A stretch of 62,389 nucleotides of DNA, filler included, from Basidiobolus ranarum (Eukaryota), in NCBI GenBank assembly GCA_040143965.1. It is 18 parts of 18 records of this genome, joined end to end, with 100 filler letters (N's around TTAATTAATTAA, not from the genome) between each part and the next. Parts side by side here need not be neighbours in the genome. Positions count along the whole stretch, not along the records: positions 41,699 to 45,067 come from JASJQH010009415.1; 17 more parts are not named here. The stretch is one strand, 5' to 3'. The notes under the pieces were generated by a model, which made no database searches, was not told the origin of the DNA, and was given only the letters and a program-made list of their open reading frames with translations. The translations under genes and the position numbers were made by a program. The stretch's first letter is position 1, and the number at the start of each line of letters is the position of its first letter. Shown here piece by piece: positions 31,289 to 58,125 of this stretch.

Positions 31289-32422
31289 GGCTAATAATTT
31301 TAAACAACTTAAATCTTCCTCCTTCCAAATGGTTAAGAGTCATACTATTTTGATACTATCCATTATATCTAGACCTATATCACCAGTGCTTATAGATAGC
31401 TTCTTGGAGCCTTTGATTGAAGAATTTGAACGGTTATCTAATGGGGTTCAGATGGGTGAATATTTTATTAAAGCTAATATCATTGTATGTATTGGTGACA
31501 CTCCTGCCACCAGTAAACTTGGAGGTTTTTGTGGTCACAATGCACTATCTTGCTGTAGATTTTGTCAAATCAATGGAGTTTACTCTGACAGGCATATGCA
31601 TTACTACTATCCAAATACAACACTAAACTTCATGATTTTGCCCTCAAGAGCCTGGTCAGATTTCAACATGATCACTGATATCAATTCATTGAATGGTCAG
31701 TCTAACATCAAACTTGATATTAGCCATAAGCCTAAGCTTATGTTGCTAAAGGGAATCAGCTGGAGCCAGAGCTTCCCATTAGGCACTATGCACTTACTGT
31801 TCAACAACATTCCAATACTACCTACTCAGCTATATAGTGGAAAATGCAATATGAATGAGCCGTTTGAGATAGAATCAAAGTTTGAATTGATTGGGAAAAT
31901 GCTTGAAAACGTCAAGATACAATCATATTTTACCAGGACTCCCCTCAATATCCACTCATCTACGAATTGATACAAATGCAAAGACTGGAAGTATTGAATT
32001 TGTATATATCCAAGTGGAATTTTGAAAAGATTTCTGCCTGATAAGGATTGGCAAGATTGGGAGTTGTTTGTGGATACTGTTAATATATTCTTATAGCATC
32101 AACTCACATTGGCAGATCTCAGGCAGATACAGCAGTGGTGCAAAGATTTTGTAATTTGATATGAAAGACTTAATTACAGGTAAAAAAAAGATAGACTGAA
32201 TCAATGCTGGTATTCAATACATTTGCTGCTGCATCTTTCACAATGCTTAGAGATTATAGGCCCTTGCTATCTATTCTGGGAGTTCCCAATGGAGTACACC
32301 TGCGGTGAAATGATTTTCCATGTGAAATTGTCAGTATTACTGTATGCTAATCTGATTAACAATGTAACAGCAACATCAGAGATGGATGTAATGTGATGGG
32401 TTAAGGATACTTCAGAGTATAT
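31289..32422 (+). mobile_element. CACTA-like transposase pseudogene
   Basis: IDSFLEPLIEEF, GDTPATSKLGGFCGHNALSCCRFC, FPLGTMH and FWEFPME. Confidence 0.88.
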
Positions 32423-32599
32423 TGGACTTGTTCTCTGTGATAGTGCCAGATTGTGCTGTATATATCATACTGGATAAATTATTCTAAAATTTATGTGGCA
32501 CAATTTGGCACTATCCATCACCCTCTGGCATGATCAATTTCAATCACACTTACTCTAATATATTGATCCAAGGTCCAATAAATCCTGGCACAATGGAAC

Positions 32600-32877
32600 A
32601 AGTCCATTAAGTAGAAAGTTGACATTTACGGTTTTGTCAAGTTGTAAGCAAACCAGCATGTATAATGTGCTAAAGAAGGTCATAGGAGCATATGTGCCAA
32701 GTTTGGGGCTTCTAGCACAAGCTTGAAAAATATATACCCCAGAACTTCTAAGTTGGTATAAATATTCAAAGTAAGTTCCAATTGAGAACAATGGATAATA
32801 TCTGAGTTAATTATACAACAACTAAGTACTAAGCTATATACTACTATACAGGTGCTTAGTCAATGCTAACTTCAACA
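32600..32877 (-). mobile_element. LTR family A copy
   Basis: Reverse complement of 2965-3240. Confidence 0.7.
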
Positions 32878-32879
32878 CT

Positions 32880-34020
32880 ACTAATGGCTCTCAAATCAGA
32901 AACTGAAGATTTTATCTTAAATAATATACTTAGCAGACTCCTGGATGCATATTTAGGCAAATTACAATCCTACCAAAAGAATGAAGTAATTCCTTTAATA
33001 GGTTATAGGAAACCATCCTATAAAGATCAGAAGTACTTTAAGAAAAAAAGTAACATATCCAGTAATTGCTATAAAAGAATTGGCCATTTAAGCAAAGACC
33101 ACAGTAAAGAATTGCAAAAGAAGAAAAACATACCAAATCTAGAAATGTGGTTACAACAGAAGATCACTTCATATCTGCTCTATCTATGACTACCAATATG
33201 GATTCTCTGATATGATATATTGATTCTGGAGCCTCCCAACATCTCACAAACAAAAATCATTGGTTTGTGAATTTGAAGAAATCCCAATTAAGATGTTTTC
33301 ATAGCAGATGACTGTACATTGAATAAACTGGGAATAGGAACTATTCAAGTCAATACAACTGGTGATTTTAAAGAGATAATATGTACTTATAAAGGTGTAC
33401 CACATGTTCCAGATATTGCCAAGAATTCAATATATGTATGCAAGGCCACCTCAGAAAGGCTGAAACTAATTTTGTTAAGCTAGGATGCATCCTCACAGAT
33501 TAAAAAAGCTATTTTGTAGCTTTAGGAGAAAAGGATCAAGGAATAATTACATGTAAGTATCTTGGCTTATATAAAAATATAAGTTGTTTCAATGAAGACA
33601 CTATACAAATATGTCATAACAGATTAGGCTATATTGGATTTGATAGTTTGAGAAAATGATCAAAAATCACCTAATTTCTGGATTTCAAATTACCCCAAAC
33701 CAAAAAGGAAATTTATGAGGATTGTATATATGGAAAACAAGCCAGGCAACCATTCAAGAGCTCTGGGTTAAACAAATTAGTTAAAAAATTGGATCAAATT
33801 CTTGCAGATTTGTTTGCACGTATGCCAAATTTTCTTCAAGTAGAAAAAGGCATATAATCACATTTATTGATGATTATACAAGACACACTTGGGTCTACTT
33901 TGTGGAAAAAAAAGAAGCTCTCTCTATCTTCAGAGATTTTAAAACTGTTGTTCAGACTAAAACTGGACCTTGAAACAAGAAAATACACACTGATAATGGT
34001 GAAGCATATGCTTCAACACA
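32880..34020 (+). mobile_element. Ty1/Copia gag zinc knuckle, protease and integrase fragment
   Basis: CYKRIGHLSKDH, IDSGASQHLTN, CHNRLG, CIYGKQARQPF and FIDDYTRHTWVYF. Confidence 0.85.
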
Positions 34021-34397
34021 ATGAAACAGTTTTGCTACTATTTATACTTTTCTGAAGATAGATATCATGATTCTAATCTTGGCATACTCATCTACTGCAA
34101 ATGTAATTGTTCAATTATCAGATTATGACATCATATCTGCTAAAGTATTTGGGCACCTGTTGAAAGTAGCATGCAGAATTAGAGAAATTGATGGTTTTCA
34201 CTTACTAATCTATTGAGTATTCAATCTGAATGAACCTTTTAAGCTAGAATCACAGTATGAATCATTTGGGAAAATGCTTCAAAACATAATGATACCACCA
34301 TATTTTACCAGAACTCCCATCAATATCCACATATCTAGGTGCTTACTCAAATGCAAAGACTGGAAGTAATGTATTTATATATGTTCAAGTGAAATCT

Positions 34398-34600
34398 GTT
34401 AAAGTATTTGGGAGCCTGTTGGAAGTGGTTTGGACAATTTGAGAAATTGGTAATTTCACTTGTTGATTTATTGAGAAGAAAGCTGACAGTTATAGTTTTG
34501 TCAAGATGCAAGCAAACAAGCAAGCAGAATGTGTTGAAAAAGATCCCAGAATAATATGTGCCAAGTTTGGGACTACTAGCACAAGTTTGAAAAATCCATA
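34398..34600 (-). mobile_element. LTR family A 3' part (a second shorter piece lies at 34141-34220; a CACTA transposase scrap lies at 34225-34395)
   Basis: Reverse-complement similarity to 21950-22160. Confidence 0.6.
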
Positions 34601-35104
34601 TAGCTAATGGGGCTCATAACCTTTTGAAATTATTTAGGGAGAAATATTGGTCTGGCCAGNNNNNNNNNNNNNNNNNNNNNNNNNNNNNNNNNNNNNNNNN
34701 NNNTTAATTAATTAANNNNNNNNNNNNNNNNNNNNNNNNNNNNNNNNNNNNNNNNNNNNCTCTAGACTTAAGACACTATGAATAAAGCTTTCATCATCTT
34801 TTGAATGTGCAATAATGTCTAAAAGTACTTTTCTTAAATATACCACATAAGTAAAATAAACTGTTTCCAAAACGGTAAATAACATTGTGCCGGATAGTGC
34901 CCAATCATGCCAATTTGTGCTGGCACACTTTTTGGCTGGCCTGATTTGGCTCAATAAAATGGAACAAGTCTGATATATATGTTCCAATTTTCAGCTAAGT
35001 GATATTTGACCAAGTAATGTTAACTAACTTATATGTGATATTTGAAATAGTTATCTGCATAAAGATAGAGATAATAAATATGGTAAAGATAATAAACTTC
35101 AACA

Positions 35105-36460
35105 CAAATCAACCAACATATACAAGGATTTACTTTAACACACCTATGTACCAATATTGAAGCAGAAGGTAGGAAGCAATCTTGAACATATGCCTACAGT
35201 TGGCAGCAAAAAATACCTTGTTGCTACCAGAGATATGCTTAATGGATGGGTGGAAGCCTGGGCTCTACTTAACAAAAAAGCATAAACAATTTGGAAGTCC
35301 AACTTGGAAGATATTATCTGCCAATAAGAAACTATATGACAATTCACTGCCAATACAGGGGAGATGATGTCACTGCTAATTCAAGACCTTTGGTTGAAGT
35401 GTTGCATACATATCAAATACACTACAGCTTATCTTCCTCATGCAAATGGGATGATACCAGGAGGACATTGACCCTAGGTGAGCTCAATGGTGCAGTCCTG
35501 TCAAGGTAAGTGATAACTTTGGCCACAAAAGCTGCACTAAGCACTATGGGCTGACAGGATCACTACCAAGAGGGCAACCAGAATGTCACCATACAGACTG
35601 ATATATGGAAAAGAATACATCCTTCCCATTGAAATTGAAGTCACTACTTGGAACACTTTGACCTGGAAGACTCATGCAACTGCCCAACAACTTCTCATCA
35701 ACTGGCTAGGCCAATTTAACAGACACCATGGTGATGTAGAGAAAGATACTGAAGGCCTGTAAACGCCAGAAATGCTAGCAAGAGCTACTTTAACAAAACC
35801 ATCCACTTTAACAAAAGCCACTAGAAGTTGCTGACCTAGTGCTTGAATATGATCCACTTTGGCCAAACAATAGAGCAGTAAGTTTGACAACTGATGGAGA
35901 GGCCCATACAAAATTATTAAAGTTGTAGGCAATGGAAGCTATCACGCAGCCAAACCTGATAGAGCAGAGCTCACACTACCAGTTGCAGGGAACAGACTAA
36001 AGGTAATCAATACTAGAGGAAATGACTCACCTAGCTGAGTTTGGTTTTTCACTTAAGTTCAAAACTCAGAGAGAGATGGATGTAGTGGGGTGGTGTTGGT
36101 TCCCACTGGCAGGTGGACTTATTCCCTATTTCATACAATTACTATCTCACAATATCTAGTTTAAAATCCATATTTGACTTGCCCATATTTTCTAGCCAAC
36201 AATTTGAAGCTAATGGTACTATCCCCTATTACTTTCTTGCAGATTCTACAACTTTCCAGAACATTCCATGGGTGACTAATCTTATAATTTATGCTGGTAG
36301 CATATCCCCCAATCCCAACCAAATTAAATTTCCTGACACTTTGAAGAAAATCTCATTAGTGATCAGTTCTACCCTCAGAAAAGCATAAATAGGAGCCATA
36401 TTCTTCAAATAAAAATCATCCTAGTTTTCAACTAACATTTACTACTTGTCGTTGCCCTTC
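35105..36460 (+). mobile_element. Ty3/Gypsy integrase core/C-terminus, purine tract and probable 3' LTR start (36081)
   Basis: PTYVP..QKVG, RDMLNGWVEA, MSPYRLIYG, WRGPYKIIKV and VAGNRLK. Followed by AGAGAGAGATGGA then TGTAGT. Same family as 38230-40340. Confidence 0.75.
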
Positions 36461-36465
36461 ATCAA

Positions 36466-38129
36466 CCCTGACAAAAATAAACCATTTGATCTGGATTGGA
36501 CCCACCCTTTTGGGATTGCAAAAACATCAGAAAGCCATCACAATATTGGGTGCTTGCATTCTGCCAGGGATTTTGAGGATGTGATGGCAGCTTCTTGATT
36601 GTACTACAATGGTATTCATACAAGTTAAAATATTAATTCCCATATTTGCCATGCATTATTTAATTTCCGGCATTTTTTGCAAAATTCTAATTTTTGAATG
36701 GCAAATTACTTAGGTTAGTACTGAAGGAATTTGAATTAATATGCATTCCTTTATTTAGATATTTTAAGCTTTGTATTCCAGCCACAATGTAAATTGAAAA
36801 ATACAAGAATCTTGATGTGTTTAGTCTGTACATATGCACATACTTGACTGATCAGATATAACTCAACAACAACAATATTCTTTAACACAAACTAATAGTG
36901 GAAAAATTGATAAATATCTGATATTTTGAAAAGCATTAACACTTGGCAAATAGCTGACTCTTGTTACTGTTCACAATGAGAATAAGCTCTTGGATTTTAG
37001 CAAATTTCTGTCAAGAATTCAGCCAAAATATTCCCAACTTGCAGTCAACAAAGGTTCTACCACAAGTAGATGTGTCATTGCTTGAAAAGATTAACCCATG
37101 GCTTAAATGATAATACTGCATATCTTGATCTATCTGACCAAGAGGTAAGTCTTGCAGCTTTTGTAGATATACTGTCAGATTATGACACAAACAAAGTAGT
37201 CCAAATTGTAGAGGTACTTACTCTCTGTCCATGGATTGGGGTTTGTTCATTTAAATATGCTCAAACAATGCAAAAACCCATGAGGACATTAAAAAGTGCA
37301 CTTTGTTGGAAGGTCAATGTACTCTGGAATCTCCTTAACCCATTGCTTTACATACATCACTAATTTGCTGTTACATTGTTAATCAGATTAGCATACGGTA
37401 ATACTGACAATCTCACACAGAGCATCATTTCACCCCAGGTGTACTCCTTTGGGAACTCTTAGTATGTATAGCCAGAGCCTAAAATCTCTGAGCATTGTGA
37501 AAGAGGCAGCATGAAATGTATTGAATACTGTCATTGATGCACTCTATCTTCTTTAAACCTGTAATAAAGTTTTCATATCCAATTACAAAATCTTTGCACA
37601 GTTGCTCTATCAACCAATGTGAGTTGATGTTGCAAGAATATATTAACAATATCCACAAACAACTGCCAATGTTGCCAAGACTTATCAGGCAGAGATCTTT
37701 TAACAATACCACTTAGATATATACAAATCTAGTACTTCCAGTCTTTGCATTGGAATAAATTACTAGATGAGTGATATTGATAGGGGTCATGGTAAAATAT
37801 GATGGTATATAGCCATTTTCAAACATTTTCCCAATCAATTCAAACTTTGATCATATCTCAAATGGCTCATTCATATTGTATTTTCCACTCTATAGCTGAG
37901 TAAGTATCATATGAATGTTGTTGAATAGTAAGTGCATAGTGCTTAGTGGGAATGTCAGGCTCCAGCTGATCCCATTTAACAATATAATCTTAGGCTTAGG
38001 GCAAATATAAAGTTTGATGTCAGACTGACTGTTTGGTGAATTGATATCAATGATCATGTTGAAAGCTGACTAGGCTCTTGATGGTAAAATCATGGAGTTT
38101 AGTTTTGTATTTGGATAGTAGAAATGTGT
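36466..38129 (-). mobile_element. CACTA-like end A plus transposase pseudogene
   Basis: Begins CCCTGACAAAAAT. Reverse-complement homologue of 14390-16063. Confidence 0.82.
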
Positions 38130-38229
38130 NNNNNNNNNNNNNNNNNNNNNNNNNNNNNNNNNNNNNNNNNNNNTTAATTAATTAANNNNNNNNNNNNNNN
38201 NNNNNNNNNNNNNNNNNNNNNNNNNNNNN

Positions 38230-40340
38230 TTAACTTCCAGACTGTGTCTGCTTTATTGTTAGGTAGAGCTCTAGCTTCCACCCAACAACTAAGGTCATCT
38301 CTGGCAACTACAAGAATTTTTTTGTTGCTAGCTGTAGTCATATGTACAAGATCAATTCCCACCTTCTGCCATAGTGCTGGTACATAGGTGGGATAAAGTG
38401 GTTTCTTATATCTTTTGGTTGATCTCCTTTGGCATGCATTACATGTCTCCACATGTGCTTTGATATCCTGATATTGATTGGTCCAATAGTATCTTAGTGT
38501 TGAGTCCTTGAAAGTAGCCTCTCTGCCATGGTGTCCTCCTGGCTCTCCTTCATGGATCTCTTTATTGATCCTCCAATTTTCTCTAGAATCAAAGATCACT
38601 CTTCTTAGTACTTGTCCTGCCTTAACAAGCTGGAAAAGTAGTCCATCCTTTACAAGAAAGTGATGGGCTTTCCTCCTGAGGTTTCTGGGTAGCTGGAGAT
38701 CTAAGGTGTATGGTCTCTGTAACATAGTCAAATAATGGACAATATCTCTCCATTCTTCAGGTATAGGAGTACTGATAGAAACTTGGTATATGTTGGCATC
38801 AAGGGAGTCTTCAGAATTGTAACCAGAGTGTATTTCCCTAGGTCTTAGTCCCATTCTTGATAGGCAATCCGTAACAACATTTGCTTATCCTGGTATGTGT
38901 ACTACTTCGAAGTCAAACGTCTTGAGCCAAGCCATCCAGCAGTTGGTAGCATCATCTGGTAGATCAGGTTTTGTTGATCATCCCAATAAGTGGTCTTGCA
39001 TCTGTTTCAGGTATGAAGTGAGTCATATAGAGTTGGGCCTACAGTTTCTTGATCATCTTTATGGCTCCAAGTAGCTCTCTGTTGACCTGGGAATATCCTT
39101 GCTCCCTAGGGTTGAATAAGCAGCTTTCATATCTGCTGGCACAGTGGTTGCCTGCCTCATCATTCTTGCCTAAAAGAGTGTCCTGCCCCAATAGGACTTT
39201 AGTCAACTATGAGTATTGGTGGTCTTGTGGCATCTGCGTAGTCTAGTGGCTTAAGTATTGGATGCAGTGTTAGTGCTTGCTACAGCTTCTCCATAGCAGC
39301 ATGTTGATCAGGTCCCCATTCAAACTTCACATTCTTTCTTTGTAGTTGGTATATGGGCTCTGCAATTTGAGAGAAATTGGGAATCAATGTTCTAAAAAAT
39401 CCATAAGAGCCCACAAATCCTCTTGCTTGGGTTAAGTAGCTTGGTGTTGGCCATGTGAGAAGTTTTTCAATCTTAGATGGTCTTGGTGTTCTTCCATGGA
39501 TGTCACATTCTTGGCCAACCATGGATATTTCTGGAATTCCAAAGTCACCTTTCTCACCACTTATTGTGAGTCCAGCCTTCTCAATTTTGGTCAAAATATT
39601 GTCATTGGCTTGTATATAGTCATATAAAAATCTTCTTACTCCTTGGAGTACTTTAGTTGTGACCTTGCTGGGTGATCCATTTATGTCAATGTCATCTACA
39701 AATACAGCTAACTTGTTGGGGATGAACTTGTGGAGAAAATTGACCATCATACATTGAAACTGTGCAACACAGTTGGTTCCACCTTGGTTGAGTCTGGTCA
39801 TTTTTAGTAGCCCAAAGAGAGTCTGTAGTCCAAATATGTCTCTTGAGGTTTCATCAATAGGAATTTGGTTGAATCCTGAATATAGACCAGAGGTTGAATA
39901 TATGGAAGCTCCTGCAAAGCACTCTGCAAACTCCTCAATTGAAGGAGGTACTGCAGCATCCCTGATTGTTATTGCATTGCAGGCTGCATGTCTTGTACAA
40001 ATCCCAATTTGCCATTCTTCTTCTTTGTGACAAACCAGCAGTTAGCATAAGGTCCATATTATGGCTCTAGGATTCCAGCTATAATTTTACTCTTTAGAAG
40101 TGCATGTACATCTGATTGCACACCTCTTGGTTGTGGGTAAGGTTTATAAGTTGATGGTGTGTCCCAAGGTGTGAATTTCTGTTGGTTTCTGAACTGAGGG
40201 CAGTAGTAGTCCCATTTCCTGGTTGTTGTATGCACAGACTCAGTCATGTCTAACCATAGACTTGTTCCATTGGACCAGGTCAGATTGTGCCACTTGATCC
40301 AGCTGGCTAGCACATCATCTGGCATGATCTCTCAATTATC
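38230..40340 (-). mobile_element. Ty3/Gypsy pol (RT, RNase H, integrase) pseudogene
   Basis: MTRLNQGGTN, FVDDI, FEWGPDQ, integrase HHCC (GGHHGREAT...CNACQ), KVGIDLVHM and ARDDLSCWVEARAL. RT precedes IN. Confidence 0.92.
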
Positions 40341-41431
40341 ATGGCTGGGTCCTGTAGCACTTGATTGGACACTATAAGCAGCAATATGGCACAATCTCAC
40401 CAAAATCAGATATGACAATTTTATTGGAGTTCTTGTGCCAGCCAGTACCACGTTACCCAATTTAGTATTACCAATTAAGATTTTGGGTAACTGACAAATC
40501 AAGTTCATTCCCTAGTTTGTAATTTATGAATTATTGAATGTGTAACAATGAACAATTTATACTGTTACTTACCCAATCAAATATATAACCAAGACATTCA
40601 CACAATTTTAGGCCAATCATTTGTCCCTCACTAACACAGTATCCTGATTTTCAATTGGGCCCAATGGCTCCTGCATTACAAAACACCAGTAGTTTTGGCA
40701 CACCAGCAACAAATCACAGCACTAAATGATGGATTGATCTGCAGTAAGATAGTAGCAATCAGGATCACTTGATTCATCATTTTTAGATCAGCATATTATT
40801 CATTCAATCATGCAAGCTTCTAATTGGGTAAGAATGTGAATGGATTGAGCCATATTGAGCTAATTTGGCTGTGCAAGCTTATTATTGACAGACATTTTTC
40901 ATTTAATTGTAGTGATATTGGTTGTATTAATAGGCTATCATTGATTTTTTTTAATATATGACAACTTTATGCTATCAGTGTTTCATAAAGACATAAGCAA
41001 TCATGATCCAACTAAAGCAATTTATGCTATATATAACTGCAATCCATATCAATATTGCATGATGCGCTAAACAACAAAGATAGGATAATGTAAATTTTCA
41101 CAAGAGAATTCAGCAGTTGCCTAGGAGTGATGCAGTACATGCTGATTTGCTTCTGTTACTTTTGTTACCTCCTTGATATTTCCATGGCAGGAACTTTGCT
41201 TGAATCTCTGTGCTGAGTTGGTTGATTTGATCCGGCTGAAGTTCCTCTACCTTGGCCAGCATGAGCTGTGGCTTGAGATTGATATGCTGTGGTATGCATA
41301 GGCTCATCTGGTGTAGTTTGCAGTTTGTTTGTATCTACAGTCTCTTCTTCAGATGTGGAGCCTTCACTTAATAAGTCAACCAGCCATTGCTGCTGGCATG
41401 CAGCTCTACATGTTGACCTGCAATGTCCCAC

Positions 41432-41698: not shown

Positions 41699-42767
41699 TG
41701 CAACGGCGAAGAAACCTTTGGGCGGAGATCGCTAGCCATTTACAATCCAGAGGCTTTGATATATCCAGTGAGCAATGTGGCCAAATGTGGAAAAACATGT
41801 AGCGCACTGTTCGAGTAAGTATTTCTTTTGCCCTTTCTTATATGTCACTCTTTTTATTGACCTAATCACTTAATCTTAATCAATAGGAGGTGGAGGAATA
41901 CAATGGTAAAGTAGGACCAACGGAGAAGAAGAAGTGTTCTTTCTACGATGAAATATCCGACTTTTACAACAAAACTCGCTTCGACTCTCCTAAGCCTTCG
42001 GAGGTCGACGACCGTGTCACCCCAGAGTAAGTAGCATGATTTCTGAGCATCATGAATAAAGTAAGCGTAACGAATTGACTTAATTCTAATGGTTATAGGA
42101 GTGAGGGGAAAATTGACACACCTGATACTCTACCCTCAAGGTAATGGCTTGACAAACTTGTACTGAATTCCCGCATAACTTATTTGTACCTTCACTTAGT
42201 CTCTCGGATTTTCAAAATGGCTCGCATGGCGCTCGTGTATTTGATACGATGTCACCAAGTACAAACATTGGATGCTCAATATCTGTCCCCAATACACTAA
42301 ATCAAGCGAAACCTAGTGGCAATAGCACTGCACGCCCCAAACGCCCGTCGGATAGTGTTCTGACGCCACTTCATAATAAACTTCTACGCATTCAGCAAGA
42401 AGGCTTTGACTCTTCAATACCTCCAGAAAAGCTGTTAGATGAGTTCCGTTTGCTTGCTGAACAGCGGAGCTCTCTGAGTACGCCTTATGGTAGTCCCTTT
42501 CCGCACAAATCTAAACAAAGATCGCATATAACCGGTGAAGGACAAATGAACACTGGATCCAAAGAAGATGTGGAGAGATTCTTCAGCTTCTATCGTGAAC
42601 AAACCCTCCGAATGAACACCGGGGCCGAGAAAGCTCGAGAGAATTTTCGGTACACATTAGAAGTAATCGAAAATTTGGCCAAAAACTTCGCAGATAAGGA
42701 ACACCAGTATGCGGATCGTCAAGACATAATGTTTGAGAATTTTGTGGAGGCCTTAAGGAAGGATTAG
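41699..42767 (+). pseudogene. Trihelix Myb/SANT-like DNA-binding protein gene with an in-frame TAG at 41800-41802, 5' truncated. Exons ..41814, 41887-42026, 42099-42140, 42200-42767
   Basis: QRRRNLWAEIASHLQSRGFDISSEQCGQMWKNM*RTVR/EVEEYN...KCSFYDEI fits the W..I...L...G...S..QC..KWKNL...F(F/Y)DE pattern. Introns are GT-AG and in phase. The C-terminus looks like a coiled coil. Confidence 0.75.
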
Positions 42768-43564
42768 CAGTTGTTCATCCTCATCACGTAACCCCACCAT
42801 GCATTGTAAGAACTTCATTTAAATAGCTGATGGCTGTCTTTGATGTCTTCATCAGAGCTCTTTCTATTGTTTTTAGCACCCCTCATGTCGTTTCATCATA
42901 TTAATACCCTCACACTCGCCCCACCTCCTCATTCATTACTATTTGTACATAAGTTTATCTTTTTGGAAGCCTCCAATCTCATCTGTTGACATAAAACCAT
43001 TTTTGAAAAATGAATGGAACAGTTCTTTACTTAGGGTTAGTAGACTTGGCTCCATTACAACCATCCATTTTCTGAATATTCCCACAATGGCACTGATTTA
43101 GTACAGTGTTTTAACCTAAAATTAGATGACTGCAAAAAATAATTAGACAATCATAGAAAACCATTCAGATGAATGTCAACAGTAAAACTAGACGTATATA
43201 TTGAGAAATTTACGTTTGGTAGAAATATGCGTTACATTATCATAAAGCGAATCAAATAGAAGCAAGTTTTTTAACTAAGCTATCTCGTTTCTGGATCAAT
43301 TGATCATATCCACATATTGTTAAAAATTATGTCAACTTAGATCGTTCAATGAAATCAATTAAGACTGATTATATGCAAATTGAATCAAGTGTAAATGCGC
43401 TACCCGAGTCAATCAATAATCGTATATATATTATATGCACTTCTTAATAAATTGATCGATCTTCTTTCTTTTTACAAATCACTACTAAATTCTAACACAC
43501 ATGTCATCAACAAACTAATTTGTCTTTAAAATAACCTCTCACATACATAATTTTATACTACACT

Positions 43565-44262
43565 ATGTCAAGAAGAAACATTAGAGGTAAATAAATAACA
43601 TACATGAACAGTCAAACTTTTTTGTTCTTATATATCTTTTGCTTTTACAGTAAGCTGAAAAGAGTTCTGCTTCTTCGTCAAGCATTAAGAGAATAATGAC
43701 TGACAAGATGTCGGTGTCTACCATTGAATGGAAGGAACAATTCAGGCCCATACTAAAAGAGTTGGTTCATAACGTGAACGACCTTGTCACCCACACATTT
43801 GCTTTTTTAAAATTCGTCTTTATAAAAGAGTTTGCCAAAGACAATGAATTCGGCTTGAAAGAATATGAGAATATGTGACAAAAGATTTTTCGGGAAGTCT
43901 TTTTGTCTCTTATTGACAAACAGGTCAGAGATGGAGGTACGACCAGCAAATCTCAGCTTTCAGCCAAAATGCGTCAGGTGAGAGAGAAAATAAACACTTA
44001 TAGAGAAGAATATTGTCAACTTGCTTCCTATGCACCTATTAAATTGGCGACTGCTCAACAAATAGCAATCTATGAAAGCACTAAGATTCATACCACCTAC
44101 ATTAATAATGTAGCTCTTCACTTTGGAAATTGTCTCAGAATGTTTCTAAACAAGGTTTTACGAAAAAAAAGAAAAGAGGGAGAAGCTGACTCAAGATATG
44201 AAAATCAACGGCTGCTCAGAAGAGGAAATAAAAATTTCAGCCAGCGAATACATCGACTCACC
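43565..44262 (+). pseudogene. Fanzor1 (eukaryotic TnpB-like RNA-guided nuclease) N-terminal WED/REC region, disrupted and truncated
   Basis: KMSVSTIEWKEQFRPILKELVHNVNDLVTHTFAFLKFVFIKE...EVFLSL...YREEYCQLASYAPIKLATAQQIAIYESTKIHTTYINNVALHFGNCLRMFLNKVL, then after a frameshift KEKREKLTQDMKINGCSEEEIK. This resembles fungal Fanzor1 N-termini as I recall them. Probable intron 43587-43654, TGA at 43876, frameshift at A8 (44163-44170). Confidence 0.75.
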
Positions 44263-45167
44263 CACACGAACCCCGAACAGTGTTAATGAGTGCCTCAAAT
44301 ATGCACATAATAACGAATACTAAACAGTCACTCGACCACTTAGAGCTTCAACGTTTGTTGATATGGGCTACGATTTTCAGCCATGGTATTCCCCGTTCAC
44401 ATCCGGGCTTCATTTAAATATTTCGAAACAGAATCCTGGGCAAAGACAACCACGTCTCAATCCATATAATAGACCTAAAGCCAACTTTAGTCCCTCACAT
44501 CTCACTGTAGCTAATGAATTAGTTCGATCTTCCCGTAGTAGTAGTGTGACGAAAGAAGCGAATCCAAATACTTCACAATTCACAACTCTATTTGATCGAG
44601 GTTTCTAAGTGACTTCACAATTGCAATAATTATAGGTTTTACTAGTGAATTGGATTAAGGAATCTCTAATATTAAACTGTAAATTTAGAAGTGTTAGTTT
44701 TTATCATGGATATTCCATGGTTAGAGATCTGCTACTAAAATCAGGATATTTATGAGGAGTGATTTTGTTGTAAGATCCAACAATCTAGAAAAAAAATGAA
44801 AAAAATGGCTCTGGTTAGCAATGGGGGAATTCAGTTCCCTAAATTTGTAACTGCATTCTAGTCGGAATTCCTCCTCTTGCGTCTTTGGTACCCATAGACT
44901 TGACCACAAATCCGTTAATTATGGTACGTTAACAAATTTACCATATCGTTTAGAGTACAATGTACATCCATCAAAGCGAAGATATCAATTATTGATTTCT
45001 GCCAAGATTACGACGAGTCGCAATATGTTCCATTAAAGTTCATCAAACCCTAACTCTTGTTTTCTGTNNNNNNNNNNNNNNNNNNNNNNNNNNNNNNNNN
45101 NNNNNNNNNNNTTAATTAATTAANNNNNNNNNNNNNNNNNNNNNNNNNNNNNNNNNNNNNNNNNNNN

Positions 45168-45956
45168 AGATCTCAGGCAGCTACAGCAACTGTGCAAAGA
45201 TTTTGTAATTGGACATGAAAAACTTTATTACAGGTTTAAAGAAGATAGACTGAATCTATGTTGGTATTCAATACATACCCTGCTGCCTATTTGACAATGC
45301 TTAAAGATTATGGGCCCCTGCTATACATTCTGGGAGTTCACAAAGAAGTGCACCTGCCATGAAATGAGGCTGCATGGAAATTGTCAATATTACTGTATGC
45401 TCATCTAATTAAAGTTGTGTCAGCAAAATCAGTGATAGATGTATTGTAATGGTTTAAAGAGACTCCAGACTGTATCAACCTCCCAACAAAGGGCTCATTT
45501 CAATGTGCTTCTGGGTTTTTGCATTGTCTTAGCACAAGAACTACAACAAACTCAATCCATACTCTAAGACTGAGTACTGGTATAATTTGGACTGATTTGT
45601 GGGTGTGATAATCTGCAGTATTTCTAGGAAAGCTGTAAGGGAGACTCTTGGTGAGATAGATCAAAATACCTAGTTATATTATTTTAGCCATGGTGTAAGC
45701 TATTCAAGCAAAGTCATATCTACTTCTAACCAGAATTATGTTGACTGAAAGTTGTGGAAATTATGGCGGAATTCTCTATAGAAATTTGTCAAAATCAAGA
45801 AAGCAGCTAAAGATGGACTCAAGCACCAGAAGATAGTAGACCCAAGGGAAAAGCAAAGGGGCCAGTGAGTTTAGGCTCTACTGTCTGAGTTACCAAATAT
45901 TTCACACCATTACAAAGATCTGTATTTCCAGAGTCAGATATACCATCAAATATACT
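45168..45956 (+). mobile_element. CACTA-like transposase C-terminal part (45168-45800) fused to an ORF2 scrap (45800-45950)
   Basis: QQLCKDFVIGHEKLYYRFKEDRLNLC...GPCYTFWEF. 45845-45935 matches 61578-61675. Confidence 0.8.
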
Positions 45957-46258
45957 GTCACAATTAGAAATTGGACAAGGACTGGAAACAGAGATAAGGG
46001 GCTAGAGAGTGGGAGGACACTTGTGTGTTGATCACAAGTAAGACAAGACAAGACTGGACAGGAAAGATAATTTGAAAGAATCTTTATTGATAACTGGTGT
46101 TGATCTGACTGAGGTCTGATAAAGGAAAACAAGGAGCTTATATAGATATTTCAGGGTATAATATAATGTATTGAATAGGGAATATACTGTAGCAAGTTCA
46201 AGTGTCAGGGCATTGGAGACTAAAACAACCAATACAAAGGGGGATGATGTAAGGATGA
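45957..46258 (-). mobile_element. Probable LTR fragment(s)
   Basis: Starts TGTCACA. The minus strand has a TATA-like site (~46140) and AATAAA (~46085). AAGGGGGATGA-TGTAAG at ~46240 looks like a PPT-LTR junction. Confidence 0.35.
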
Positions 46259-46273
46259 TCAGATGACCTTCAG

Positions 46274-48382
46274 TCCTAGCAAAAACAAAATCAATTTGAT
46301 CTGGATCAGATTCACCCCTCTGGATTGCAAAACCATCAGAGTACTGTTACAGTATTGGTGGCTTGCATTTGACCAGGAATTTTGATGGTGGGACAGCAAC
46401 TTCTTGACAGTATTATTATGGTAATCACACATGGAAGAATTTGGATCCTCACATTTGTCATGCATTTTTTTATTTTGAACAACATTGGCAAAAAACTAAT
46501 TTTCAAATGGCAAATTACTAAGTTATTGCTATAGGAATTCAAATTAATATGCATACCTTTATTGAGATATTTTAGGCTTATATTACCACCATTATGAGAA
46601 TAAAAATATTGAAGAATCTTGTTGTGTTTATTCTCCACATATGAACATACTTGACTAATTGGACATAACACAACAACTCCAATATTTTATACCAGTAAAC
46701 CAATGGGGGGAAAATTGCTAAACATCTGAAACTTTGAATTGCACTGACACTTGGCAAATAGCTAACTCTTGCTACCATTCTTCATGAGAATAAGCTCTTG
46801 GACTTTGGAAAATTTCCAAAAAAAAACTCAGCTGATATATCTAAAACTAACAGTCAACAAATATCCTGCCATAAGTAGATGTGTCATTGCTTGAATAAAA
46901 TACCACTTGGCTAAAACAACAATATTGTGTATCTAATCTGTCTAACCAAGAAGTCTATCCTGCAGCTTTTCTAAAAATATTATCAGATTATCACACAAAC
47001 AATTAGTCCAAATTATAAAGGTACTTACTCTGTATCCATGGAGTGAGGTTTGTTGCTGTTATTGTGCTCAAGGAATGCAAAATCCCATGAGCATATTCAA
47101 AAGAGCCTTTTGTTGGAAGGCTGATATAGTCTGGAGTCTCCTTAATCCATTAATATATATCCAATAACAATTTTGCTGAAACATTGTTAATTAGATTAGC
47201 CCAAGGTAGTACTGGCAGTTTCAGAGAGCATCATTTCACCATAAGTGTGCTGCATTGGAAACTCCCAAAATATATAGCAAGGGCCTATGATCTCCAAGCA
47301 CTGTGAAAGATGCAAGAGAGAATGTATAGACTACTTGCATAGATTAAGACTATTATCTTCAAACTTGTAAAGAAGTTTTTCATGTACACTTACAAAATCT
47401 TTGCATAGTTGCTGTGTTTGCCTGAGATCTGCTAATGTGAGTTGATGCCTTAAGAATATATTTACAATATCCTCAAACAATACCCTATGTTGCCAATACT
47501 TACCAGGCAGAAATATTTTCAAAATTACACTTGTAGATACACGTGTCCAATATTCCCAGTTGTTGCATTTGAGTAAATGCTTAGATGAGTAGATATTGCT
47601 GGGAGTTCTGGTAAAATATGATGGCATCTTGATGTTTTCAAGCATTTTCCCTACCTATTCAAATTTTGATCCTATCCTGTATGGCTCATTCAGATTGATT
47701 TTCCACTATACAGCTGAGTAATTAGTATTGGAATGAAATCAAATAGTAAGTGCATAGTGCCTGATGGGAAGCTCTGGCCCTAGCTGATCCCCTTTAGCAA
47801 TACAATCATAGGCTTCTGGCTATTCTCAAGTGTAATGTTACACTGACTGTTTGGGGAATTGATCTCAATAGGCATGTGGAAATCCAAGGGCTCTTGATGG
47901 GAAAATTGTGGAGTTTAATGTTGTATTTGGATAGTAGTAGTCAGTGTCCTGGTAGAATAAGCTCCATTTATTTGATAAAACCTAGAGCAAGAAAGTGCAT
48001 TTTGCCTGCAAAAACCTGCAAGTTCACACATGGCAGAAGTGGCACCAACACATACAATGATATCAGCTTTAAAAAAGTATTTACCCATCTGTACAATATT
48101 AGATAACTACTCCAATGCCCCAATCCATGGCTCCAAAAAGCTATCCATAATCACTTGTGACTTAGGCCAAGATGTGATTGCTATTATCAAATCTTATACT
48201 TCTTATACCATTCAGAAGAAGGAAGATTTAAGTTTATTGAAACTATTGGCTGGCAAGCCTTTCCAGCAATATATTTGTCTAGTAAGAAATCATCCAGAGC
48301 CAATGCAAATGCATGCTCATATATTTTCTCAAAGAATCCTTGATGTATCAGATTTTGATGGTGATATCCATCAAGTCTATTG
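46274..48382 (-). mobile_element. CACTA-like end A plus transposase pseudogene
   Basis: Begins TCCTAGCAAAAAC. Reverse-complement homologue of 13948-16063. Confidence 0.85.
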
Positions 48383-48634: not shown

Positions 48635-49105
48635 AACAGCGTCAGCATCAAGTCTGGCTTGGAGGGTCTTCTTGTGTTGAAGACTACTGGATCATCCTTC
48701 ACCAACTTCCATCATTGCGAGAACACTACACTCCAAGATGCCGATGACCGTATATTCTCTACTACCGTCAAGGCTCACTACAACATCGATACTTCGATTG
48801 GTGTTGAGAACATTCCATTCGATCGTATCTTTGATGGAGTTCGTAAGACCACCTTGGATGTGTTTGCTCATGACGACTCTGCCTCCGTCCAAGCCACCAT
48901 GTACCGTATGGCTGAGTTGATCTTGAAGCGATTCCCTGAAGTCAAGGATGTTCACTATGCCCTTCCTAACAGCCATCACTTCACCACCAACCTTGCACCA
49001 TTCAAGCTTCCAAACTCTGGTCAAGAAATGACTATTTTCTCACCTATCACTGATTTCTCTGGATATATTACCGCAACAATTGGCCGTTCTAATAGCCGTA
49101 TTTAA
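48635..49105 (+). CDS. uox: Urate oxidase copy A, C-terminal half
   Basis: LVLKTTGSSF, TTL....DRIFST, SASVQATMY and LPNSHHF. Ends SRI*. Confidence 0.95.
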   Translation, partial: NSVSIKSGLEGLLVLKTTGSSFTNFHHCENTTLQDADDRIFSTTVKAHYNIDTSIGVENIPFDRIFDGVRKTTLDVFAHDDSASVQATMYRMAELILKRFPEVKDVHYALPNSHHFTTNLAPFKLPNSGQEMTIFSPITDFSGYITATIGRSNSRI

Positions 49106-50253: not shown

Positions 50254-51144
50254 TTAAAACCTGTTGTTACAACGGCCAATGGTGGCAGTAATATAGCCAG
50301 AGAAGTCAGTAACGGGTGAAAATATTGTCATCTCTTGACCCGAGTTTGCAAGATTAAATGGTGCAAGATTAGTGGTAAAATGATGACTGTTGGGTAGGGC
50401 ATAGTGAACATCCTTGACTTCCGGGAATCTCTTCAAGATCAACTCAGCCATACGGTACATGGTGGCTTGGACTGAGGCAGAGTCATCGTGAGCAAATACA
50501 TCCAAGGTGGTCTTGCGAACTCCATCAAAGATACGATCGAATGGAATGTTCTCTACCCCAATCGAAGTGTCGATGTTGTAGTGAGCCTTGACGGTGGTAG
50601 AGAATATACGGTCATCAGCATCTTGGAGAGTAGTGTTCTCGCAATGATGGAAGTTAGTGAAGGATGATCCAGTAGTCTTCAACACAAGAAGACCCTCCAA
50701 GCCAGACTTGATGCTGACGCTGTTGGCGGTGACAGTCAACCAGGTTTGTCTGGTCTCAGATCCATCACGGTAAAAGGAATGAGGATGGGGCTCACCATTG
50801 ACATTGATTCTGGCCCAACGAGACTGGACAATGTGGACATTGGCGTGGGTGACGTGAGAGTATTTGTCCACAAAGTGTTTGCCGAGTTCATAACCATAAC
50901 GTTCAATGGTTTGAACATGGTTAGACTTCTTGGCAATGACATAGCAAGTGTTCTTGACTGTGTCAGTTGGAACTACCATGCTGTTGTCAGCCTCGGTGTA
51001 AGCCGTCTCAAAGTCACCCTCAAGGAGCACTTGACAGGTAAGCTCAACAATGTCGTTCCACTCGGCGGTGTGGCGGATGGCTTTAGTGACTCTGACCTTA
51101 GCTTTACCGTAAGCCTGACGTTTTAACTCGATAGATGAAGACAT
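50254..51144 (-). CDS. uox: Urate oxidase copy B, complete and intronless (296 aa)
   Basis: YGKAKVR, VVPTDTVKNT, LKTTGSSF, DRIFST, SVQATMY and LPN.H.F. Confidence 0.97.
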   Translation of the reverse strand: MSSSIELKRQAYGKAKVRVTKAIRHTAEWNDIVELTCQVLLEGDFETAYTEADNSMVVPTDTVKNTCYVIAKKSNHVQTIERYGYELGKHFVDKYSHVTHANVHIVQSRWARINVNGEPHPHSFYRDGSETRQTWLTVTANSVSIKSGLEGLLVLKTTGSSFTNFHHCENTTLQDADDRIFSTTVKAHYNIDTSIGVENIPFDRIFDGVRKTTLDVFAHDDSASVQATMYRMAELILKRFPEVKDVHYALPNSHHFTTNLAPFNLANSGQEMTIFSPVTDFSGYITATIGRCNNRF

Positions 51145-51718
51145 GGCTGGCTAGATAATTGGCTAAGTGGAAGTTTTGTAATTTTTCTTCACCCTTCATT
51201 GACTTTAAATATAAACAAATCTAAAACCTATGTTACTTTGAGCCGATTACGCTGAGCAAAATGGGAATAGATCTAATGTGTGGTACAAACATTATATTCT
51301 CTTAAAACCCGATACCAACAATTCGCCTAGGCCACTCAATTGAATAAATTTCATTTAATACTGGTAATCAATAGTATTTACAATAAGGCAAAGATTATAT
51401 TCATGAAGTTTTATTTATTCACACAGTGTAATACTTCATGTAAAGCCGGCTTGCTCTGCTTTTACCATTTATCTTTTGAATCTGATCAAAATCAACAGAT
51501 TGTCCATGAGAACTCATTCTTGATTACCGGTTATGCCTCAGATGTACCAAGGCCGAGGCTACTTCACAAATACGGCGATTCTTCATTGAAATCAGATCTG
51601 TCAATATTCAATGGAACTGCCGTTACCACCTATTGAATCCATATTCTATATAAGGTCTTGTCATGTTTGTATGGATTTCATCATCATCAGTATCAACTAA
51701 TTGTTACTAACAGCCATT

Positions 51719-55564: not shown

Positions 55565-58125
55565 GTATATATTGTAAATAAGCCAGGCAACCATTCAAGA
55601 GCTCTGGCCCAATCAAATCTGTCAAAAAATTGGATCTAATTCATTCAGATTTGTGTGGACCTATGCAAATTTATCTTTAGATGGAGAAAGATATTTAATC
55701 ATGTTTATTGATGATTTTAAAAGATATACATAGACCTACTTTATGGAAAGAAAAGAAGAAGGTCTCTTTATCTTAAGAGATTTTAAAACACTTGTGGAGA
55801 CTGAAACTGGAACAAAAATCAAGAAAATACATACCAAGAATGGTGGAGATAACACTTCAGCCCTATTTAAGCACTTTTGTAAAGTTCAAGTAATTAAGCA
55901 AGAAACTACTGCACCCTATTCATCTCAACAAAATGGAGTTGCTGAAGGAATTAACAGGAATATAACAGAAATGGCAAGATTTATGATAAATGCACAAAAT
56001 TTATCTCATAACTTTTGGTGGAATCTGTTGCTACAGCTGTAGTTTGGAAGTATAAGAGTTTTACTAAAAGTCTGTCTAATTCTACACCATATCAGACTTG
56101 GTTTGGAGTTAAACCTGATGTAAAATATTTGAGAATCCTTGGATGCATTGCTTATGTCAAGATTGTGACCAAAAGTCAGTGTAAGTTTGATCCAAAAAGT
56201 AAGAAATGCATATTTCTTGGTTTTTGTACTCAAACCAAAATATCCAAGTTAATCAATTCCAGGGATGTTTTATTTAATGAAAATGAAAAATTTCATCCAA
56301 AATGACCTCAGATGATAGCAAAAATCAATTTTCTCCTGACCCAATCATTCCAGTTAATTCTAACCAAAACAATGAAGAAAATAGCAATCCTGTGGATCCT
56401 TCAACCAAAGCTTTCCCTACTGAAGTGCCCAATACAATGCAGAAGTTGTAGTATCTTTATCCCAACCCAGGGGATCAAATTAGATCATAAATAGCCCTGA
56501 TTACTATATAAATGAGTCCCAAAATTGGGCCTATGCCTGCACAGCTCAAATACATGAGCCCCAGACTGTTAAAGAATCCCTGAATGGCTCTCACACAAAA
56601 GTTCTGGAGATCTACAATGGCTGATGAGTAGCAGGCTTTAATTGATAATCAAACTGCTACTTTGAGCAACTTACCTGAAGATAAAAAGTCAATTGGCTAA
56701 CAATGGGTGTTTAATGTCAAATACAACTCTGATAGCAATATAGAAAGGTACAAGGCTAGACTAGTAGCCAATGGCTATTCTCAAACACTAGGAATGGATT
56801 ATATAGAAACTTTTGCACCTGTAGCAAAGTTTAAATCAATTAGGTTGATTTTAGCAATTTCCACTATATGTCAGTTTATTATACATCAAATGGATGTTAA
56901 AGCTGCTTTTTTGAATGGGGTGCTTGCTGAGGATATCTATATGGACCAGCAGATGGATTTGTGGACCCACAAAGCCTAAAAAAGTTTGCAGAATCTGGAA
57001 AACACTCTATAGCTTAAAACAATCTCCAAGCGCTAGAAATAGCAAGATAGACGCTTTTTTGGAAACACTCAAATTCCAAAAGAGTAATGCTGACTGTAGT
57101 ATCTACTTCAGGCCAGATAAGACAAACCCTGCTTTATTAGCCTTATATGTAGATGACCATATGATAGCAGCCAAAGACTGGAAGACTTTGGAGAAAACCA
57201 AATCCAGCTTATCTACCATAATCAAAATGACTGAACTTGGTGAACTGATGTACCATCTTGGAATCCAAATCACTATAGCTATAAATATCATAACAATAAC
57301 TTTAAACTAGTCCAAGTATATCCTGGATATGCTAAAGAAGTTAAAAATGGGAGAATGTAATCCAGTATCTATCCTAATGGAGACAAGTTGTAACTTGAAC
57401 AAAAATGGCTCATATCAGATGTTTTTGGATTCAGATGTTAGCCAGAAGTTTCCTTCTCAATCTATGGTTGGTAGTTTGATATATATCATGGTTGGAACAT
57501 GGCCAGATATGCATATTCTGTGGGAGTTATATGCCATTATCTTCAAAATTGTGGTTCTAATCATATCATAGCAGTTAAGCTGATTTTCAGATATTTGAAA
57601 GGCACTGTGGATCTGTGCTCAAAATACACATATTCTGGATCAAACTTTGATCTGATGGGATATTCAGATGCAAACTGGGGAAGAGATATTGAAGACAGGA
57701 GATCTATCACAGGATACTTATTTCTTTACTGTAATGGAGCTTTTTCTTGGAATTCAAAGAAACATGCGACCATAGCTCTTTCAATAACAGAAGCTGAATA
57801 CATACCTGCCTGTGAAGCAACAAAAGAAGCAATATGGTTAAGAAAACTCTCAACACATCTAGGTTATTCTCAAAATTCACCAACTACAATATTTCAAGAT
57901 AATCTAAGTTGTAACAAATTAGTTAAAAATCCCATGTTTCATAATAGAAGCAAACATATGGATATTAAACTTCACTTCATTAGAGTGACCTTAGAGAATA
58001 GGTTTATTGACTTAAATTATTGTTCAACTGAAGACTTCATTGCTGATATACTTACCAAACCATTAGCTAGACAGAAATTTGAGAAATTCAGACCTTTATT
58101 GGGATTAGTTTACAAGACTATTTAG
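55565..58125 (+). mobile_element. Ty1/Copia pol (integrase, RT, RNase H) pseudogene
   Basis: HSDLCGPM, PYSSQQNGVAE, YKARLVA, QMDVKAAFLNG, LYVDD, YSDANWG, TEAEY, SKHMDIKLHFIR and ADILTKPL. IN precedes RT. Confidence 0.95.

What the first reader, a model, noticed from the sequence alone, without database searches (positions are those of the whole stretch)
43565..44262. Fanzor1-like RNA-guided nuclease relic split across unlabelled ORFs
Joining the 43696 and 43903 ORFs and the frame after the A8 run gives ~210 aa with the order of motifs I recall for fungal Fanzor1 such as SpuFz1: K.S....., V..LVTH....LKF, YCQL, QQ...Y, Y.NNV..HF...LR..LN. A short basic first exon (MSRRNIR) is probably spliced on. 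No RuvC or zinc finger is visible, so this copy is dead. It still flags a Fanzor family in this genome, possibly with intact members and an omegaRNA. Unlike the other TEs here it retains many CpGs, which suggests it is young, low-copy or unmethylated.
Basis: partly seen in the sequence, partly recalled or inferred. Interest (0 to 1): 0.85.

Follow-up and report, generated by a model that had tools for sequence, protein, structure and literature searches.

The report
Dead front fragment of Fanzor1 gene
This stretch is the broken front quarter of a Fanzor1 gene (a transposon-borne RNA-guided DNA cutter of fungi) that has lost its cutting domain, so it is an ordinary genomic fossil that only shows such elements once lived in this fungus.

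Summary
Window 43565-44263 (+) encodes about 195 codons that match Fanzor1. The read-through peptide hits the solved Parasitella parasitica Fanzor1 (PpFz1) at E 4e-33. Its AlphaFold model matches PpFz1 best and SpuFz1 next. It covers only PpFz1 residues ~96-288 of 849, the N-terminal strand region plus the helical REC domain. The second half of WED, RuvC and the TNB zinc ribbon are absent from the whole window.

The piece carries several lesions:
- a start exon that is out of frame;
- a TAA directly after a 64-nt GT-AG intron;
- a TGA at 43876;
- a frameshift at the A8 run;
- loss of homology after ~44263.

The nearest relatives are three short Basidiobolus ranarum proteins (65-79% identity). 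Full-length relatives found were Mucorales proteins or unnamed; none was from Basidiobolus.

The window is 18 unlinked contigs joined by linkers, so only 41699-45067 is true context. The CpG claim is confirmed: o/e is 0.66 here against 0.0-0.18 in the window's transposons. The many lesions argue for "not targeted by CpG loss" rather than "young".

Verdict: a pseudogene relic of a known family, of low interest.

The parts
43565..43586 (+). Remnant of exon 1 of the Fanzor1 gene. It holds the ancestral ATG at 43565-43567. The reading QEETLE (43569-43586) is offset by one base from the ATG, and 22 nt is not a multiple of three.
   Evidence: frame translations, and tblastn of paralogues P0049 (EEETLE vs QEETLE) and P0156 (EETLE, 5 of 5). 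One search gives the sequence.
43587..43650 (+). Probable 64-nt spliceosomal intron (GTAAAT ... pyrimidine-rich ... ACAG). It joins the EETLE frame in phase 0 to the main frame.
   Evidence: Sequence. The paralogues read ETLE-E-AEKS, with exactly one residue where this copy has TAA. This is an inference; no RNA data were available.
43651..43653 (+). TAA stop at the first codon after the intron, where the paralogues have Glu.
   Evidence: alignment LQ*AEKSS against LEEAEKSS.
43654..43875 (+). Fanzor1-homologous coding remnant, part 1 (profile positions 3-64). It covers the N-terminal strand region and the first long REC helix.
   Evidence: E 1e-24; helix 28-62.
43876..43893 (+). Local lesion. 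An in-frame TGA (43876-43878) is followed by a short stretch read out of register. The copy reads M*QKIF where paralogue P0006 reads MCDKRFF; the next frame reads ICDKRFF. This is consistent with a 2-nt loss and a 1-nt loss that together restore the frame.
   Evidence: P0006 1-18 matches frame 2 at 43871-43924, and P0006 4-103 matches frame 1 at 43879-44178.
43879..44170 (+). Fanzor1-homologous coding remnant, part 2 (profile positions 68-172). It holds the REC helices with the conserved AQQIA.YE..KI.T.Y.NN...HFGN.LR motif block.
   Evidence: E 4e-35.
44163..44170 (+). A8 homopolymer where the reading frame shifts by one base.
44171..44263 (+). Last homologous stretch, read in the next frame (EKREKLTQDMKINGCSEEEIKISASEYIDSP). 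Homology to all relatives ends here, at about PpFz1 residue 288 of 849.
44264..45067 (.). About 800 nt to the end of the contig with no Fanzor homology, no long ORF and no Pfam match. This is the sequence that replaces the missing three quarters of the gene.
41699..45067 (.). The only true physical context: one 3369-nt contig, bounded by artificial linkers.
   Evidence: linkers and size-sorted segments; the window's own ORFs P0005 and P0011 lie on a contig of 3369 nt.

Best explanation
Window 43565-44263 is a non-functional 5' remnant of a PpFz1-type Fanzor1 gene.

Background (from print, not tested here): in its intact form Fanzor1 is carried by a transposon and binds an omegaRNA encoded at the 3' end of the element. 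It recognises a TAM and the guide/target duplex with its WED and REC domains, and it cuts DNA with a RuvC/TNB nuclease (PMC11423790, passages read).

This copy retains only the N-terminal strand region and the helical REC domain, equivalent to PpFz1 residues ~96-288 of 849. It is disabled at least five times:
- exon 1 is out of frame with its ATG;
- a TAA follows the intron;
- a TGA and a local frame slip lie at 43876-43893;
- a one-base shift lies in the A8 run;
- everything from the second WED half onward is lost (WED strands, RuvC, FRI, TNB, and with them the expected place of the omegaRNA and the right transposon end).

It therefore makes no nuclease and no guide, and it has no activity of its own. 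The two small ORFs annotated on it (60 and 105 aa) are by-products of the decay.

It sits on a gene-like, CpG-normal contig next to a Myb/SANT-type gene fragment, in a fungus that is probably Basidiobolus. The homology, extent and lesions are shown. The intron, the exact nature of the indels and the organism are inferred.
For: - Sequence: phmmer against PDB gives 9cf0_P (PpFz1) at E 4.2e-33, query 8-177. BLASTP to PpFz1 itself (P0158) gives 40% identity over 96-258, E 6e-38.
- Structure: the AF2 model has pLDDT 84.4. Foldseek PDB ranks 1-2 are PpFz (E 6e-8, TM 0.63) and ranks 3-6 are SpuFz.
- Relatives: one search gives 203 hits. The full-length relative P0026 (732 aa) matches PpFz1 at E 5.6e-197 and SpuFz1 at 1.7e-36. 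P0084 (807 aa) behaves likewise.
- Extent: tblastn of 153 family proteins against the window gives 152 of 152 rows at E<=1e-3 inside 43645-44320. A profile of 11 long relatives against 3211 six-frame peptides finds only three collinear pieces, profile positions 3-191; the next best hit has E 1.6.
- Lesions.
- A paralogue reaches further: P0156 goes on into the CFPLR...TIDT WED strands that are absent here.
- CpG.
Against: - No genome, no paralogue DNA and no RNA reads were available. The indel reconstructions and the intron therefore rest on protein alignments only.
- Two of the lesions lie in homopolymers (A8 and a T run) and could be assembly errors.
- The contig ends 800 nt after homology stops. 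An insertion that splits the gene, with the rest on another contig, cannot be excluded.
- Pfam gives no hit for the peptide. PF26935, which the database attaches to the relatives, is not in the tool's Pfam copy, so its name is unknown to me.
Confidence: 0.9

Rival explanations
1. The gene is split rather than truncated. An insertion or rearrangement at ~44263 separates the REC part from a WED-RuvC-TNB part that lies beyond the end of this 3369-nt contig. The locus would then be a whole-length, though still mutated, Fanzor1 copy.
For: The contig ends only 804 nt after homology stops. The assembly is highly fragmented into ~3.4-kb contigs. Paralogue P0156 shows that longer copies exist in B. ranarum.
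Against: The 804 nt downstream show no transposon protein, no repeat shared with the other 17 contigs and no Fanzor homology. The stops and frameshifts upstream remain in any case.
Confidence: 0.08
2. The stop codons and frameshifts are sequencing or assembly errors, and the REC-only ORF is an expressed, possibly domesticated, host protein.
For: The contig is CpG-normal like host genes. Two lesions sit in homopolymers. Annotators called ORFs here (P0005 and P0011).
Against: The TAA at 43651 and the TGA region are not homopolymer errors. Paralogue P0006 ends in the same RKKRK reading as this copy's shifted frame, which suggests the A8 shift is inherited. Nearly all short relatives in the library look like similar fragments of full-length Fanzor1 genes. 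A REC domain alone has no known activity.
Confidence: 0.03
3. The similarity is to a host helical domain that merely resembles the Fanzor REC domain, and is not a transposon relic.
For: There is no Pfam hit, and no transposon ends could be found.
Against: The hit to PpFz1 has E 4e-33. Every long relative checked is a full Fanzor1: P0026, P0084 and P0158 match PpFz1 and SpuFz1 through the nuclease part. Among 10 long relatives scanned, 4 give weak Cas12f1-like TNB hits below Pfam's cut-off and 6 give none.
Confidence: 0.01

Closest known systems
Parasitella parasitica Fanzor1 (PpFz1; PDB 9cf0-9cf3; Cell 2024, PMC11423790, passages read)
   Same: There is 40% identity over PpFz1 96-258, and collinear homology to ~288. 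The predicted fold superposes at TM 0.63 and rmsd 3.0 A over ~160 columns. The conserved REC motifs are the same.
   Different: Only 23% of the protein is present. There is no second WED half, no RuvC triad, no FRI insertion, no TNB zinc ribbon and no omegaRNA region. The piece carries stops and frameshifts.
Annotated Fanzor1-like fragments of Basidiobolus ranarum (P0006, P0049, P0156; named 'hypothetical protein K7432_...' by the source)
   Same: These are the closest relatives, at 78%, 79% and 65% identity. They share the N-terminus M-x-x-EETLEEAEKS, and P0006 shares the RKKRK reading after the A run.
   Different: They lack this copy's TGA and local slip (P0006) and its TAA (P0049, P0156). 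P0156 continues into the WED strands. Only their protein sequences were available.
Rhizopus / Mucor / Parasitella Fanzor1 family (proteins tagged PF26935 by the database)
   Same: There is 53-55% identity to R. stolonifer P0002. In a quick tree the window copy and P0156 fall in a supported 8-row clade with R. microsporus and R. stolonifer copies.
   Different: The host is apparently Basidiobolus, not Mucorales. Many Mucorales copies are full length at 600-880 aa.
Spizellomyces punctatus Fanzor1 (SpuFz1; PDB 8gkh)
   Same: It has the same REC fold (Foldseek ranks 3-6, probability 1.00). Long relatives of the relic match it by sequence.
   Different: It is not detectable by sequence from the relic itself at E<=10. 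Identity in the structural alignment is 19%.

Membership tests
Fanzor1 (eukaryotic TnpB-like omegaRNA-guided nuclease) | Significant sequence homology to an experimentally characterised Fanzor1 | tested here: met
   Hit to PpFz1 at E 4.2e-33; 40% identity over 171 columns.
Fanzor1 (eukaryotic TnpB-like omegaRNA-guided nuclease) | REC-domain fold as in solved Fanzor1 structures | tested here: met
   The model has pLDDT 84.4. The top six Foldseek PDB hits are PpFz and SpuFz chains.
Fanzor1 (eukaryotic TnpB-like omegaRNA-guided nuclease) | Complete WED domain (C-terminal strands, CFPLR...TIDT block) | tested here: not met
   The block is present in P0156, P0002, P0003 and P0026 but has no counterpart in the window.
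Fanzor1 (eukaryotic TnpB-like omegaRNA-guided nuclease) | RuvC domain with its catalytic acidic triad (RuvC-I DPG motif at PpFz1 ~485) | tested here: not met
   No match beyond profile position 191 anywhere in 62 kb. tblastn with 153 proteins and HMM against 3211 peptides both found nothing.
Fanzor1 (eukaryotic TnpB-like omegaRNA-guided nuclease) | C-terminal TNB / zinc-ribbon domain | tested here: not met
   Same searches. The relic has no Pfam hit.
Fanzor1 (eukaryotic TnpB-like omegaRNA-guided nuclease) | omegaRNA encoded at the 3' end of the gene or transposon | not testable with these tools
   The 3' part of the gene is missing. Rfam found nothing in the window, but I do not know whether Rfam holds a model for this omegaRNA. 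No paralogue DNA was available to build one.
Fanzor1 (eukaryotic TnpB-like omegaRNA-guided nuclease) | Location inside a transposon with defined ends (TIR/TSD) | tested here: inconclusive
   Only short, chance-level repeats lie around the locus. No sequence is shared with the other 17 contigs.
   P0026 6-707 aligns to PpFz1 chain 566-1254. P0084 604-775 aligns to the C-terminus of PpFz1 and SpuFz1.

The most novel reading that the evidence does not exclude
The Basidiobolus Fanzor1 lineage, to which this relic belongs, was acquired by horizontal transfer of a transposon from a Rhizopus-like Mucorales fungus, or the reverse. In the REC tree it nests, with starred support, in a small clade of Rhizopus copies. 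It is far from the one Zoopagomycota copy sampled (Coemansia). After arrival the element escaped the CpG-destroying process that has hit every other transposon in this genome sample.
Probability: 0.25. Interest if true: 0.35.

Novelty: new member of a known kind. Interest (0 to 1): 0.2.

Why it matters
On its own the finding matters little. It is a fossil of a known family with no nuclease, no guide RNA and no editing potential.

It has three modest values.
- It records PpFz1-type Fanzor1 elements in what is probably Basidiobolus. I found no paper that mentions that host together with Fanzor: 0 papers for 'Fanzor' + 'Basidiobolus', and none of the 10 listed papers for Fanzor with Zoopagomycota/Entomophthor* terms holds the word Fanzor. 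Supplementary tables of the Fanzor surveys could not be read and may list it.
- It gives a seed for a genome-wide search for intact copies.
- It is a transposon-derived sequence that kept its CpGs in a genome whose other transposons are almost CpG-free. That makes it a small natural control for how that genome recognises repeats.

Tried and rejected
- Whole-genome search of the window's own genome: no genome is held.
- Pfam on the relic: 0 families even at E 10.
- Rfam over the window: 0 matches. tRNA scan: 0.
- Earlier notes of this scan: nothing for this genome or sequence. The word search returned only Fanzor findings in other genomes, none bearing on this one.
- Search for TIRs and repeats around the locus: only the artificial linkers and 14-20-nt chance matches. 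No DNA or translated similarity between the contig and the other 17 contigs.
- Search for a Basidiobolus full-length Fanzor1. The 'longer' word search found only a Rhizopus protein and one JGI protein. The profile search listed 120 of 132 hits, none named Basidiobolus. This is weak evidence of absence, because the index is word-based and many rows are unnamed.
- Horizontal-transfer test. The quick tree nests the Basidiobolus pair among Rhizopus copies. The AU test did not reject a tree holding the 22 named Mucorales rows together against window + P0156 + Coemansia (p 0.108, lnL 13.0 lower). The group was also named after the tree had been seen. Seven rows were dropped from the tree: P0006, P0198, P0200, P0232, P0236 and P0244 for overlap under 100 residues, and P0194 for no hit. 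P0049 was not entered.
It was rejected in favour of the phase-0 join of the EETLE frame.

Full report
**What is in the sequence**

The region was read directly, and all stop-to-stop ORFs were listed under the standard code.
They are one reading frame interrupted by a single TGA at 43876-43878.
- Read through with X at the stop, this gives a 210-residue peptide, P0001.
- An A8 run lies at 44163-44170. The next frame from 44150 reads a 57-residue peptide, P0004.

**Is it Fanzor?**

Pfam gave nothing for P0001, even at E 10. The other evidence is strong.
- A sequence search of all PDB chains gave one strong hit: the MBP fusion of Parasitella parasitica Fanzor 1 (9cf0, also 9cf1-3). E is 4.2e-33, query 8-177 against chain 510-671. 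The only other row was noise at E 0.54.
- P0158, an 849-residue Parasitella protein found later, is PpFz1 itself: chain 412-1259 equals residues 2-849 at 1931 bits. P0001 residues 4-174 align to PpFz1 96-258 at 40% identity.
- An exhaustive HMMER scan of 1.84 billion representatives found 203 relatives at E<=1e-3, 79 at <=1e-10 and 8 at <=1e-30. Many are short fragments.
- Long relatives are complete Fanzor1 proteins. P0026 (732 aa) matches PpFz1 over residues 6-707 at E 5.6e-197 and SpuFz1 at 1.7e-36. P0084 (807 aa, named Coemansia sp.) matches the C-terminal nuclease part of both.
- Of 10 long relatives scanned with Pfam, 4 give weak Cas12f1-like TNB hits, all under the curated cut-off, and 6 give none.
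- An AlphaFold2 model of P0001 was built on a 42-sequence alignment. It has mean pLDDT 84.4 and is a helical bundle.
- Foldseek against the PDB returns PpFz at ranks 1-2 (E 6e-8, TM 0.63, rmsd 3.0 A) and SpuFz at ranks 3-6. Everything below has E>1.

That test was: no profile or structural match, and full-length homologues lacking RuvC.

**How much of the gene is left**
- TBLASTN of 153 family proteins against the whole window gave 152 rows at E<=1e-3. All lie within 43645-44320.
- A profile of 11 long relatives (alignment A2) was searched against 3211 six-frame peptides of the window. It finds three collinear pieces only: profile 3-64 (43654-43875, E 1e-24), 68-172 (43879-44283, E 4e-35) and 155-191 (44150-44320, E 0.04). 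The next best peptide has E 1.6.
- The frame-2 piece continues the homology exactly where frame 1 loses it. This confirms the shift at the A8 run.
- Homology ends at about 44263, which corresponds to about PpFz1 residue 288.

In PpFz1 the RuvC-I motif (LMDPGRRD) lies at 483-490 (subject sequence shown). The paper places R448 in the loop between WED and RuvC (PMC11423790, passages read). The relic therefore holds the N-terminal strand region and the REC domain only. The second WED half, RuvC, the FRI insertion and TNB are all missing. So is the 3' region, where Fanzor1 loci encode their omegaRNA (the paper's description; not testable here).

The 804 nt from 44264 to the contig end show no long ORF, no Pfam hit and no Fanzor similarity.

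**Lesions**

Three annotated Basidiobolus ranarum proteins are the closest relatives:
- P0006: 103 aa, 78% identity;
- P0049: 58 aa, 79% identity;
- P0156: 213 aa, 65% identity.

Their N-termini read MPEEETLEEAEKSS... and MLGEETLEEAEKS.... Comparison with this copy shows the following.
- The frame one base after the ATG at 43565 reads QEETLE and ends at 43586.
- A GT...AG interval of 64 nt follows (43587-43650).
- The next codon is TAA, where the paralogues have Glu. AEKSS follows.

However, the exon is out of frame with its ATG (22 nt). Its ancestral reading was acidic, not MSRRNIR, and a stop follows the intron.

Around the TGA this copy reads M*QKIF where P0006 reads MCDKRFF, and the adjacent frame reads ICDKRFF. 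This fits two small deletions that together restore the frame. It is inferred from proteins only.

With the A8 shift and the truncation, that makes at least five disabling events. None leaves room for an intron, because homology is contiguous across each one. P0006 ends with the same RKKRK reading as this copy's shifted frame. That hints that the A8 shift is inherited rather than a sequencing error.

**Context**

The window is not one piece of genome. It holds 17 linkers of 100 characters each (44 N, TTAATTAATTAA, 44 N). These separate 18 segments whose lengths fall monotonically from 3379 to 3362 nt. The segments are size-sorted contigs joined artificially. The window's own ORFs P0005 and P0011 are on record on a contig of 3369 nt, which is the length of segment 41699-45067. 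The retrotransposon before 41598 and the transposase after 45168 are therefore not neighbours of the relic.

On the true contig the upstream sequence is a gene fragment with short introns. Its first visible exon (41701-41814) matches Myb_DNA-bind_4 at E 1.1e-7 (32.6 bits, above the cut-off of 27). It too carries an in-frame TAG. The 204-codon ORF 42153-42767 has no significant Pfam hit. No transposon ends could be defined.

**CpG**

Over the window, CpG o/e is 0.34 and strongly bimodal.
- Pfam-confirmed transposon ORFs have o/e 0.05-0.18 with a TpG/CpA excess of 1.25-1.5. These are Transposase_21, Integrase_H2C2, RVT_1 and RVT_2.
- Host genes have 0.65-0.93. These are ATP synthase gamma, uricase and cyclin.
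- The Fanzor piece has 14 CpG in 609 nt, o/e 0.66. Its whole contig is at about 0.8.

Given the number of lesions and the 21-35% protein divergence from paralogues, 'low-copy and not targeted' is a better reading than 'young'.

**Host and origin**

The three nearest relatives are named Basidiobolus ranarum, so the window is probably from that fungus or a close relative. This is an inference.

The profile search listed 120 of 132 hits.
- The named ones are Rhizopus, Mucor, Parasitella, Pilaira, Helicostylum, Cokeromyces, Thamnidium, Rhizomucor and Umbelopsis.
- None is Basidiobolus.

A quick maximum-likelihood tree of the REC region used 50 rows and 173 columns; 7 rows were dropped for short overlap or no hit. 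It pairs the relic with P0156 (SH-aLRT 99). It puts both in an 8-row clade (99) with R. microsporus and R. stolonifer copies, away from Coemansia. An AU test did not reject holding the 22 named Mucorales rows together (p 0.108). Horizontal transfer is therefore only a possibility.

**Limits**

No genome, no reads, no paralogue DNA and no supplementary tables were available. Whether intact Fanzor1 copies or an omegaRNA survive in this genome remains open.

**Verdict**

The object is an ordinary pseudogene fragment of a known family in a probably unreported host. Interest is low.

Noticed in passing
window 3380-3479, 6859-6958... 58928-59027 (17 linkers): The window is 18 contigs of 3379 down to 3362 nt, sorted by length. 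They are joined by N44-TTAATTAATTAA-N44 linkers that carry stops in all six frames. Adjacency across the linkers is artificial.
   Followed up: yes
whole window, e.g. 8001-10000, 14001-22999, 32001-40999, 45168-47999, 56001-62389: CpG content is strongly bimodal. Transposon contigs have CpG o/e 0.0-0.1 with a TpG/CpA excess of 1.3-1.6. Genic contigs have 0.6-1.0. This is the signature of methylation-driven or RIP-like CpG loss confined to repeats.
   Followed up: partly
window 41701-42150 (+): An upstream gene fragment on the same contig. Its exon 41701-41814 matches the Myb/SANT-like domain Myb_DNA-bind_4 (E 1.1e-7) but holds an in-frame TAG. It is followed by GTAAGT-type short introns. It may be a second pseudogene beside the Fanzor relic.
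   Followed up: partly
window 48635-49105 (+) and 50254-51150 (-): One contig carries a complete uricase ORF (Pfam Uricase, E 7e-65). It also carries, in inverted orientation at the contig start, a near-identical copy of the C-terminal ~155 codons. This is either an inverted partial duplication or an assembly fold-back.
   Followed up: no
window 14356-15781, 31290-31967, 45168-45300 (+): Three CpG-free copies of one DNA-transposon protein family lie on three different contigs. The copy at 31290-31967 matches Pfam Transposase_21 (tnp2) at E 1.8e-7. The other two are recognisably similar by eye.
   Followed up: partly
paralogue P0006 versus window 44150-44178: The B. ranarum fragment P0006 ends in ...VLRKKRKD. 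This is the same shifted reading as the window copy after its A run, so the frameshift may predate the duplication of these copies.
   Followed up: no
database annotation of relatives: Most relatives carry the precomputed Pfam tag PF26935.1. That family is absent from the Pfam copy the scan tool uses: there are no hits for P0001, P0002, P0156 or even PpFz1 itself. I could not learn what the family is called.
   Followed up: no
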